A stretch of DNA of 64,000 bases from NCBI RefSeq assembly GCF_988243305.1, contig NZ_OZ547136.1, one strand, 5' to 3'. Of the stretch, positions 3,017 to 3,202 are shown piece by piece. The notes under the pieces are model-generated. The model was not told the origin of the DNA. It ran no database searches and saw nothing but the letters and a program-made list of their open reading frames with translations. A program made the position numbers and the translations under genes. The first letter of the stretch is position 1. Each line of letters opens with the position of its first letter.

Positions 3017-3202
3017 AAATCGCGGAAGGGATGAAAAAAACAGCGCCTGACGGCGCTGTGTCTGGCATGCCTGCAATCCGGGAAACCGGACCAGGAAAAA
3101 ACTTGCAGGCCATAACAGTATCTACCCACTACCCACTGTTTTTACACCGATAATTTTTCCCCCACCTTTTTGCACTCATTCATATAAAAAATATATTTCC
3201 CC

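What the first reader, a model, noticed from the sequence alone, without database searches (positions are those of the whole stretch)
3103..3123. Sigma70 promoter split across the IS ends, complete only in the circular form
The right end carries TTGCAG (3103-3108) and the left end carries TATTAT (1847-1852). If the element circularises (RE joined to LE), the sequence reads TTGCAG-gccataacagtatct-tg-TATTAT with a 17-bp spacer, a near-consensus promoter aimed at the ncRNA and recombinase. In the integrated state the corresponding -35 position in the flank (CTGACG, 1824-1829) is a poorer match. Expression of the RNA and recombinase would therefore be boosted specifically after excision, a built-in switch.
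Basis: partly seen in the sequence, partly recalled or inferred. Interest (0 to 1): 0.7.

Follow-up and report, generated by a model that had tools for sequence, protein, structure and literature searches.

The report
IS621 circle-junction promoter, already published
The two promoter halves really do sit on opposite ends of an IS621 insertion sequence and join into one promoter when the element circularises, but this switch has already been described and tested for IS621, so it is a correct rediscovery and not a new finding.

Summary
Window 1845-3123 is an intact 1279-bp IS621 (IS110 family) inserted in a REP between prpE and codB. TTGCAG (3103-3108) lies in its right end and TATTAT (1847-1852) in its left end. 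Joining the ends through the single CT core gives TTGCAG-17 bp-TATTAT, 7 nt upstream of the bridge RNA 5' end (1859).

The mechanism is published for IS621: the circle rebuilds a sigma70 promoter across the core, RNA-seq reads start at it, and removing the -35 box abolishes in-cis bridge RNA function (Durrant et al. 2024). My own test agrees. In 37 non-redundant junctions of relatives (down to about 45% protein identity), TTG sits exactly 17 bp before the -10 (100/97/100%). No left flank examined supplies TTG there.

Two details are overstated:
- TTGCAG matches TTGACA at only 3 of 6 positions, so the promoter is not near-consensus.
- At this locus the flank hexamer CTGACG matches 4 of 6 at the same 17-bp spacing. 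It scores as well as the circle junction on a crude matrix.

The on/off contrast is therefore unproven for this copy. Novelty: already known. Interest: low.

The parts
1845..3123 (+). IS621 insertion sequence (IS110 family), 1279 bp, counting the CT core once at the right end (equivalently 1843-3121). LE = 1845-2035 (191 bp), RE = 3017-3123 (107 bp).
   Evidence: 100% identical to copies annotated 'IS110-like element IS621 family transposase' in RefSeq E. coli genomes. Empty site is 100% identical over 522 nt. Ten other copies have identical ends and length. LE 191 bp and RE-LE 298 bp equal the published figures.
3103..3108 (+). -35 hexamer TTGCAG of the junction promoter, in the right end, 13 nt upstream of the CT core.
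   Evidence: Sequence. TTG at this position is T100%/T97%/G100% in 37 non-redundant relatives, and these columns were not used to find them. Published 22-bp and 52-bp RE constructs place the natural -35 box between about 11 and 52 bp upstream of the core.
1847..1852 (+). -10 hexamer TATTAT in the left end (5/6 to TATAAT). No extended -10: the TG is at -14/-13, not -15/-14.
   Evidence: A at position 2 and T at position 6 are invariant in relatives, but this block overlaps the pattern used to find the ends and the donor site.
3109..3123 (+). First 15 nt of the 17-bp spacer. It contains the conserved donor-site left half ATAACAGTAT (3112-3121) and the CT core (3122-3123). The spacer is completed by TG at 1845-1846.
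   Evidence: ATAACAGTATCT|TGTAT conserved across relatives. The donor lies around the CT core.
1859..2035 (+). Bridge RNA (177 nt). The inferred start at A1859 is 7 nt after the -10. The RNA begins with a stem-loop covering nt 1-33.
   Evidence: LE 191 bp minus the published 177-nt ncRNA gives a start at 1859. It folds at -64.5 kcal/mol, z = -3.6 against shuffles. Rfam 15 finds nothing here at E up to 1.
2036..3016 (+). IS621 recombinase gene (326 aa, DEDD/RuvC-like plus Tnp domains).
   Evidence: ORF. NCBIfam NF033542 'IS110 family RNA-guided transposase', 254 bits against a cut-off of 140. Pfam PF01548 and PF02371 are on record for the identical protein.
1824..1829 (+). Flank hexamer CTGACG, in the loop and stem of the target REP, 17 bp upstream of TATTAT in the integrated state. 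It is a possible surrogate -35.
   Evidence: The scan tool reports CTGACG-17-TATTAT as promoter-like, 9/12. Crude matrix: 9.86 bits against 9.34 for the circle junction. It is among the three best of the 48 left flanks examined.
1836..1844 (+). Left part of the target site ATCAGGCCT, ending in the left copy of the CT core (1843-1844). With AC at 3124-3125 it forms the natural IS621 target ATCAGGCCTAC.
   Evidence: Target sequence as published.
1769..1843 (.). Pair of REP palindromes (BIME-like) downstream of prpE. The second REP (hairpin about 1811-1842) is the IS621 target.
   Evidence: Rfam naRNA4 (a REP-derived family), 53 bits, below its gathering score of 59.5. Hairpin of -23.1 kcal/mol, z = -4.95.
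3096..3101 (+). A-tract (AAAAAA) at -42 to -37, just upstream of the -35. It may be an UP-element-like contribution of the right end.
   Evidence: Sequence. A 4-6 nt A-run is in the same place in all six enterobacterial lineages, which have the weaker TTGCxx -35, and is absent from relatives with TTGACx. The function is inferred only.

Best explanation
This is the junction promoter (Pjunc) of IS621, an IS110-family element whose recombinase is guided by a bridge RNA.

In the chromosome the two promoter halves are 1.25 kb apart and face away from each other's partner. The -10 (TATTAT, 1847-1852) starts 2 bp inside the left end. The -35 (TTGCAG, 3103-3108) lies 13 bp upstream of the CT core at the right end. 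When the recombinase and bridge RNA excise or copy out the element as a circle, the ends are joined through the single CT core. The two hexamers then stand 17 bp apart.

Sigma70 RNA polymerase then starts at about A1859. It transcribes the 177-nt bridge RNA and, by read-through past its 5' stem-loop, the recombinase gene. Re-insertion into a new REP target (ATCAGGCCT|AC) splits the promoter again.

The spacer and the first half of the -10 are also the donor site that the bridge RNA and recombinase recognise.

Status of each step:
- Shown here: the anatomy, the exact boundaries, the spacing, and conservation of the -35 at fixed spacing in relatives.
- Shown in the literature: transcription from the RE-LE junction, and dependence on the -35 box.
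- Inferred: that this particular integrated copy is much less active than its circle.
For: Identity and boundaries:
- IS621 at 100% identity.
- Empty site at 100% over 522 nt.
- CT at both junctions and target ATCAGGCCT|AC in 9 of the 11 copies examined, with close variants in the other two.

Geometry:
- 17-bp spacer.
- The -10 ends 7 nt before the start of the 177-nt ncRNA. This follows from the published LE of 191 bp, RE-LE of 298 bp and ncRNA of 177 nt, which match 1845-2035 and 3017-3123 exactly.
- The junction is the top-scoring promoter-like site of 7734 positions on both strands of the circular element.

Conservation:
- In 37 non-redundant RE-LE junctions from relatives in Enterobacteriaceae, Methylomonas, Janthinobacterium, Undibacterium, Dokdonella, Contendobacter and others, the hexamer 17 bp upstream of the -10 is T100/T97/G100/A76/C68.
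- The columns between it and the donor block vary.
- TTG is kept whether the hexamer is non-coding (IS621 clade), inside the CDS (Enterobacter clade) or overlaps the stop codon (distant clade).
- No left flank of the 48 examined has TTG at 16-18 bp.

Published experiments:
- Small RNA-seq of RE-LE plasmids shows a peak of about 177 bp 'starting from the predicted endogenous sigma70-like promoter'.
- Hybrid promoters are also reported for ISPpu10 (PMC12288879; bioRxiv 2026.03.19.712850).
Against: - The -35 is a weak match (3/6), and the junction fails the scan tool's own promoter criteria (criteria; 8/12).
- At this locus the flank supplies CTGACG (4/6) at the same spacing. The integrated junction therefore scores equal or higher on consensus counts and on a crude matrix, which blurs the on/off contrast for this copy.
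- The papers as held give no hexamer sequences in text. Identity of 'their' -35 with TTGCAG is inferred from construct lengths and spacing.
- No expression data for this locus were available.
- My matrix uses remembered consensus-base frequencies with the remainder split evenly, so it is rough.
Confidence: 0.9

Rival explanations
1. At this insertion (prpE-codB REP) the promoter is not really split. The REP flank supplies a usable -35 (CTGACG, 1824-1829) 17 bp from TATTAT. The integrated copy would then transcribe bridge RNA and recombinase at a level comparable to the circle, and the switch is leaky here.
For: - The scan tool flags CTGACG-17-TATTAT at 9/12, whereas the circle junction would be 8/12.
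- Crude matrix: 9.86 against 9.34 bits.
- Some expression from the integrated state is logically required for the first excision.
- ISPpu10 is reported to have a weak native promoter for this purpose.
Against: - CTGACG lacks the first T of TTG. TTG is the part of the -35 that is invariant in all relatives and the best conserved part in E. coli promoters (general knowledge).
- The flank has no A-tract upstream, whereas the right end has AAAAAA at -42 to -37.
- Most other IS621 sites have only 1-3/6 at this position, so the element is not built to rely on the flank.
- No measurement exists.
Confidence: 0.3
2. The conserved right-end hexamer is not a promoter element. It would be conserved for another reason: as part of the recombination site or a recombinase binding site, or because it overlaps the recombinase stop codon.
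For: - In most distant relatives the stop codon TGA lies inside the hexamer (T-TGA-C).
- The hexamer is only 4 nt from the strongly conserved donor block ATAACAGTATCT.
Against: - TTG is equally kept where the hexamer is far downstream of the stop codon (IS621, Phytobacter and related clades, 84-98 nt) or inside the reading frame (Enterobacter clade).
- The T before TGA is a synonymous or variable codon position and is still 100% T, and the stop is TGA rather than TAA or TAG in all of that clade. Both point to selection on the nucleotides.
- A 22-bp donor lacking this hexamer recombines efficiently when the bridge RNA is supplied in trans, so the hexamer is needed for expression and not for recombination.
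Confidence: 0.05
3. Chance juxtaposition of two weak hexamer matches, with no functional meaning.
For: Matches of this quality are common: the scan finds as many in shuffles as in the real region. There are 34 sites with at least this score in the 64-kb window.
Against: - Rank 1 of 7734 in the circular element.
- Exact fit to the bridge RNA 5' end.
- Invariance of TTG at fixed spacing in 37 diverged junctions.
- Published functional data.
Confidence: 0.02

Closest known systems
IS621 RE-LE junction promoter driving the bridge RNA (Durrant et al., Nature 2024, PMC11208160)
   Same: It is the same element at 100% identity, with the same 191-bp LE, 107-bp RE, CT core, target ATCAGGCCTAC and 177-nt ncRNA.
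   Different: Nothing in the element differs. Only the chromosomal context is specific: this copy sits in a REP whose loop reads CTGACG, which gives a 4/6 surrogate -35 in the integrated state.
ISPpu10 (IS110 family, Pseudomonas putida) hybrid Pjunc (PMC12288879; bioRxiv 10.64898/2026.03.19.712850)
   Same: The -35 comes from the right end and the -10 from the left end. It is a strong promoter only in the minicircle, it is REP-targeted with a CT core, and it drives the bridge RNA and recombinase. The post-integration REP hairpin plus the U-rich element terminus acts as a terminator.
   Different: It is a different element in a different host. ISPpu10 lacks the 5' stem-loop that the IS621 bridge RNA carries, and it has a documented weak internal promoter. 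No such internal promoter-like site was found in the IS621 LE.
Pjunc of IS1111/IS110 relatives studied earlier: IS492 circle junction and ISEc11 Pjunc (as cited)
   Same: DEDD-transposase elements that form circles with abutted ends and so create a promoter.
   Different: [quoted passage not shown]
Pjunc of DDE-transposase elements of the IS3, IS21 and IS30 families (reviewed)
   Same: The logic is the same: an outward -35 in one end and an inward -10 in the other, assembled in the circular or tandem-end intermediate and dismantled by integration.
   Different: The enzymes are unrelated (DDE), the hexamers sit in terminal inverted repeats, there is a short spacer between abutted ends, and no guide RNA is transcribed.

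Membership tests
IS621 / IS110 family insertion sequence | Encodes a DEDD (RuvC-like) IS110-type recombinase | tested here: met
   NCBIfam NF033542, 254.5 bits against a cut-off of 140. Pfam PF01548 and PF02371 on record. RefSeq annotates identical copies as IS621 family transposase.
IS621 / IS110 family insertion sequence | Defined ends flanked by the CT core on both sides, inserted at ATCAGGCCT|AC in a REP | tested here: met
   CT at 1843-1844 and 3122-3123. The empty site reads ...ATCAGGCCTAC... and is 100% identical over 522 nt. The same ends occur at 10 other sites. Target as published. REP hit.
IS621 / IS110 family insertion sequence | Long non-coding left end encoding a structured bridge RNA upstream of the recombinase gene | tested here: met
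   LE is 191 bp. The 177-nt stretch folds at -64.5 kcal/mol with z = -3.6 and a 5' stem-loop, and its lengths equal the published ones. Pairing of its loops with target and donor was not re-derived here.
Junction (Pjunc-type) split promoter | -35-like hexamer at one end and -10-like hexamer at the other, both facing the transposase gene after the ends are joined | tested here: met
   TTGCAG 3103-3108 (+) and TATTAT 1847-1852 (+).
Junction (Pjunc-type) split promoter | Spacing of 16-18 bp only when the ends are abutted | tested here: met
   17 bp with one CT core. The spacing is the same 17 bp in 58 of 58 located junctions, with TTG present in 57.
Junction (Pjunc-type) split promoter | The integrated state lacks an equivalent -35 in the flank | tested here: inconclusive
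   This holds at most sites: flank hexamers match at 1-3/6, and none of 48 flanks has TTG. At this locus the flank gives CTGACG, 4/6, at 17 bp, and the integrated junction is flagged as promoter-like.
Junction (Pjunc-type) split promoter | A circular (or abutted-end) intermediate exists | not testable with these tools
   Not detectable in a single assembled window. Published for IS621 and relatives.
Junction (Pjunc-type) split promoter | Measured transcription from the junction, dependent on the -35 | not testable with these tools
   Published: small RNA-seq from RE-LE plasmids, and loss of in-cis function when the -35 box is removed. Nothing was measured for this locus.

The most novel reading that the evidence does not exclude
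This prpE-codB copy may be an unusually active IS621 copy. Its REP flank happens to give CTGACG at the ideal 17-bp spacing from the element's -10, so the integrated copy could make bridge RNA and recombinase without first circularising.

A second reading the evidence does not exclude: the promoter spacer and the first half of the -10 are also the donor site bound by the bridge RNA-recombinase complex. The complex could therefore shut off its own promoter on the circle (autorepression by occlusion). I found no statement of this for IS621 in the passages I read.
Probability: 0.25. Interest if true: 0.4.

Novelty: already known. Interest (0 to 1): 0.15.

Why it matters
The split promoter explains how IS110-family elements restrict high expression of their guide RNA and recombinase to the transposition intermediate. 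It is also the 'natural promoter' used in the first bridge-recombinase genome-editing constructs. All of this is published, so the finding adds nothing new about the mechanism.

What this analysis adds is small:
- The -35 TTG at 17 bp is conserved far beyond the published close orthologues, even where it overlaps the recombinase stop codon.
- The strength of the off state depends on which REP variant the element landed in, and this locus is one of the least 'off' by sequence.

Tried and rejected
- Rfam 15 holds no match for the bridge RNA. There was nothing in the LE at E up to 1 and nothing in the whole window at gathering scores, so the RNA was identified from the literature and by folding.
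- The original IS621 paper (Choi et al. 2003, PMC166490) is not in the library.
- An extended -10 was considered and rejected: the TG is at -14/-13, not -15/-14 (one search reports 'no').
- An outward hybrid promoter from the right-end -35 into codB was rejected. The hexamers at 16-18 bp are CCCACT, CCACTA and CACTAC, at most 2/6.
- A second internal promoter for the recombinase in the LE was not found by the scan. The next best site in the circle scores 6.6 bits.
- No other IS621 copy is in the window, and there are no tRNAs.
- The preprint on two IS110 transposition pathways contained nothing on native promoters.
- My position-weight matrix is built from remembered consensus-base frequencies, so the 9.3 against 9.9 bit comparison should be read only as 'not clearly different'.

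Full report
**What is there**

Window 1845-3123 is an intact copy of IS621, an IS110-family insertion sequence of Escherichia coli.
- It is 100% identical over 1279 bp to copies that RefSeq annotates as 'IS110-like element IS621 family transposase'. 2244 of 5426 complete E. coli genomes hold a match, with a median of 5 places per genome.
- It lies between prpE (33-1763, +) and codB (3285-4544, +), inside the second of two REP palindromes (Rfam naRNA4-like hit at 1769-1843).
- Joining the flanks (1600-1844 + 3124-3400) reproduces the uninterrupted prpE-codB spacer at 100% identity over all 522 nt. 4276 genomes hold a place covering at least 80% of it, so the boundaries are exact.
- The target reads ATCAGGCCT|AC, the published natural IS621 target, with the CT core present at both junctions (1843-1844 and 3122-3123).
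- 296 of 5426 genomes carry IS621 at this same site.
- The ORF at 2036-3016 encodes the 326-aa recombinase (NCBIfam NF033542 'IS110 family RNA-guided transposase', 254 bits; Pfam PF01548 + PF02371).
- The left end is 191 bp and the right end 107 bp, together 298 bp. These are the same numbers given for IS621 in Durrant et al. 2024.

**Check of the observation**

With one CT core the joined ends read TTGCAG-GCCATAACAGTATCTTG-TATTAT, a 17-bp spacer.

The published ncRNA is 177 nt of the 191-bp left end, which puts its 5' end at A1859. That is 7 nt after the last base of TATTAT, the canonical distance. The 177-nt stretch folds into a strongly structured RNA with a 5' stem-loop (-64.5 kcal/mol, z = -3.6).

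**Is it more than chance?**

- As a bare consensus match it is weak. TTGCAG matches TTGACA at 3 of 6 and TATTAT matches TATAAT at 5 of 6. The total of 8 of 12 would not pass the scan tool's own criteria, and that scan finds about as many sites in shuffles as in the real region.
- There is no extended -10.
- On a crude matrix (consensus-base frequencies from memory, remainder split evenly) the junction is still the best of 7734 candidate positions on both strands of the circular element (9.3 bits, next best 6.6). Sites that good occur about once per 3.8 kb of single strand in the window.

**Independent test by comparison**

A scan of one genome per species with the recombinase returned 78 loci at 33-84% protein identity.
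- Copies within one genome gave the element boundaries directly. These showed that the ends ...ATAACAGTATCT | TGTAT... are shared across the whole group.
- Using those two blocks, both ends could be located in 49 loci plus the 10 further IS621 copies.
- In 37 non-redundant reconstructed junctions, the hexamer exactly 17 bp upstream of the -10 was not part of the search pattern. It reads T 100%, T 97%, G 100%, A 76%, C 68%, then variable.
- The four columns between it and the donor block are much less conserved.
- Distant relatives (Methylomonas, Janthinobacterium, Undibacterium, Dokdonella, Contendobacter and others) carry TTGACx (5/6, twice 6/6). The enterobacterial clade that includes IS621 carries TTGC(A/G)x together with an A-run at about -38 to -43.
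- TTG is kept in three different contexts: non-coding (IS621 clade, stop codon 84-98 nt upstream), inside the reading frame (Enterobacter clade, where the stop TAA lies in the donor block ATAACAG), and overlapping the stop codon as T-TGA-C (most distant relatives).
- Only one junction (L059, TGGCGC) lacks it.
- Conservation of the -10 (TAT-T/G-x-T, with A2 and T6 invariant) is real but partly circular. That block was in the search pattern and overlaps the donor site.

**The integrated state**

No left flank of the 48 examined offers TTG at 16-18 bp from the -10. At nine of the ten other IS621 sites the flank hexamers match TTGACA at only 1-3 of 6, for example TGCGCT in the common short REP type.

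This locus is an exception in degree. Its REP reads ...CGCTGACGCG..., which puts CTGACG (4/6) exactly 17 bp upstream of TATTAT.
- The scan tool reports this integrated junction as promoter-like (9/12).
- It scores 9.9 bits against 9.3 for the circle junction.
- It lacks the first T of the invariant TTG and has no A-tract upstream, so it may well be weaker in reality. Sequence alone does not show that it is 'a poorer match'.

**What the literature already says**

- Durrant et al. [quoted passage not shown]
- In the same paper, small RNA-seq of plasmids carrying the RE-LE of IS621 and five orthologues shows a peak of about 177 bp 'starting from the predicted endogenous sigma70-like promoter', with a sequence logo of the motif.
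- Constructs keeping 52 bp of the RE retain the natural promoter. TTGCAG, 13-18 bp upstream of the core, is the only candidate consistent with these constructs, the spacing and the RNA start.
- The NAR 2025 paper on ISPpu9/ISPpu10 (PMC12288879) summarises Pjunc promoters in IS3, IS21, IS30 and IS110/IS1111 elements. [quoted passage not shown]
- A 2026 preprint adds two points. The IS621 5' stem-loop dampens downstream expression. In ISPpu10 the REP hairpin plus the U-rich element terminus forms a terminator after integration.

**Mechanism**

In the chromosome the -10 and the RNA start are at the left end, and the -35 (plus an A-tract) is at the far right end. The recombinase-bridge RNA complex joins the ends at the CT core, and the resulting circle carries TTGCAG-17-TATTAT. 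Sigma70 polymerase then transcribes the bridge RNA and, past its 5' stem-loop, the recombinase gene. Insertion into a new REP splits the promoter again.

- Shown here: anatomy, boundaries, spacing, conservation.
- Shown in the literature: transcription from the junction and its dependence on the -35.
- Inferred: the size of the on/off ratio at this locus, any contribution of the A-tract, and any occlusion of the promoter by the donor complex, whose binding site is the spacer and the first half of the -10.

**Verdict**

Two details are overstated ('near-consensus', and 'poorer match' for this flank). Novelty: already known. Interest is low. The only locus-specific point is that this REP variant gives one of the best surrogate -35 hexamers seen among the flanks examined.

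Noticed in passing
L024-L067 and other loci (right ends), e.g. L040 2440-2474: In most distant IS621 relatives the recombinase stop codon TGA lies inside the -35 hexamer (T-TGA-C-x). The stop is always TGA and the preceding codon always ends in T. In the Enterobacter clade (L011, L012, L019, L023, L039) the reading frame runs through the -35 and stops at the TAA inside the donor block ATAACAG. One short stretch therefore carries coding, promoter and recombination-site functions together.
   Followed up: partly
window 3096-3101, and the matching position in L011, L013, L014, L019, L020: A 4-6 nt A-run sits at about -38 to -43, just upstream of the -35, in all six enterobacterial lineages. These have the weaker TTGCxx hexamer. 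The A-run is absent from relatives with TTGACx. It may be an UP-element-like compensation. This was not tested.
   Followed up: no
window 1811-1856: After insertion the REP hairpin (-23.1 kcal/mol, z = -4.95) is followed directly by the U-rich left terminus (CUUGUAUUAU). This gives a terminator-like hybrid that could block read-through from prpE into the element. The same arrangement was shown to terminate transcription for ISPpu10. In the empty site the hairpin is followed by CUACCCACUACCC instead.
   Followed up: partly
L001-L010 (gene tables), and window 33-1763 / 1845-3123: At all ten other IS621 sites and in the window, the gene upstream of the element is on the same strand as the recombinase. 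At nine of the ten other sites the downstream gene converges on it. This is probably a consequence of REP position and orientation at the 3' ends of genes, but it means read-through from the upstream gene always points into the bridge RNA.
   Followed up: no
window 3040-3059: A G+C-rich hairpin in the right end (ACAGCGCCGTCAGGCGCTGT) is followed by a T-run on the minus strand only. It is terminator-like for transcription entering the element from the right in the antisense direction. On the plus strand it follows the recombinase stop codon without a U-tract.
   Followed up: no
L059 (Zoogloea MAG), right end: This is the only located junction without TTG at the -35 position (TGGCGC). Its reading frame extends to the TAA in the donor block. 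It may be a decaying copy or a variant with another promoter.
   Followed up: no
E. coli genome hits H1-H13: In several genomes the best IS621 place is made of two pieces spanning 1326-2345 bp for a 1279-bp query. One (H13) also overlaps an annotated IS5 family transposase. This suggests partial tandem or interrupted IS621 copies. They were not examined.
   Followed up: no
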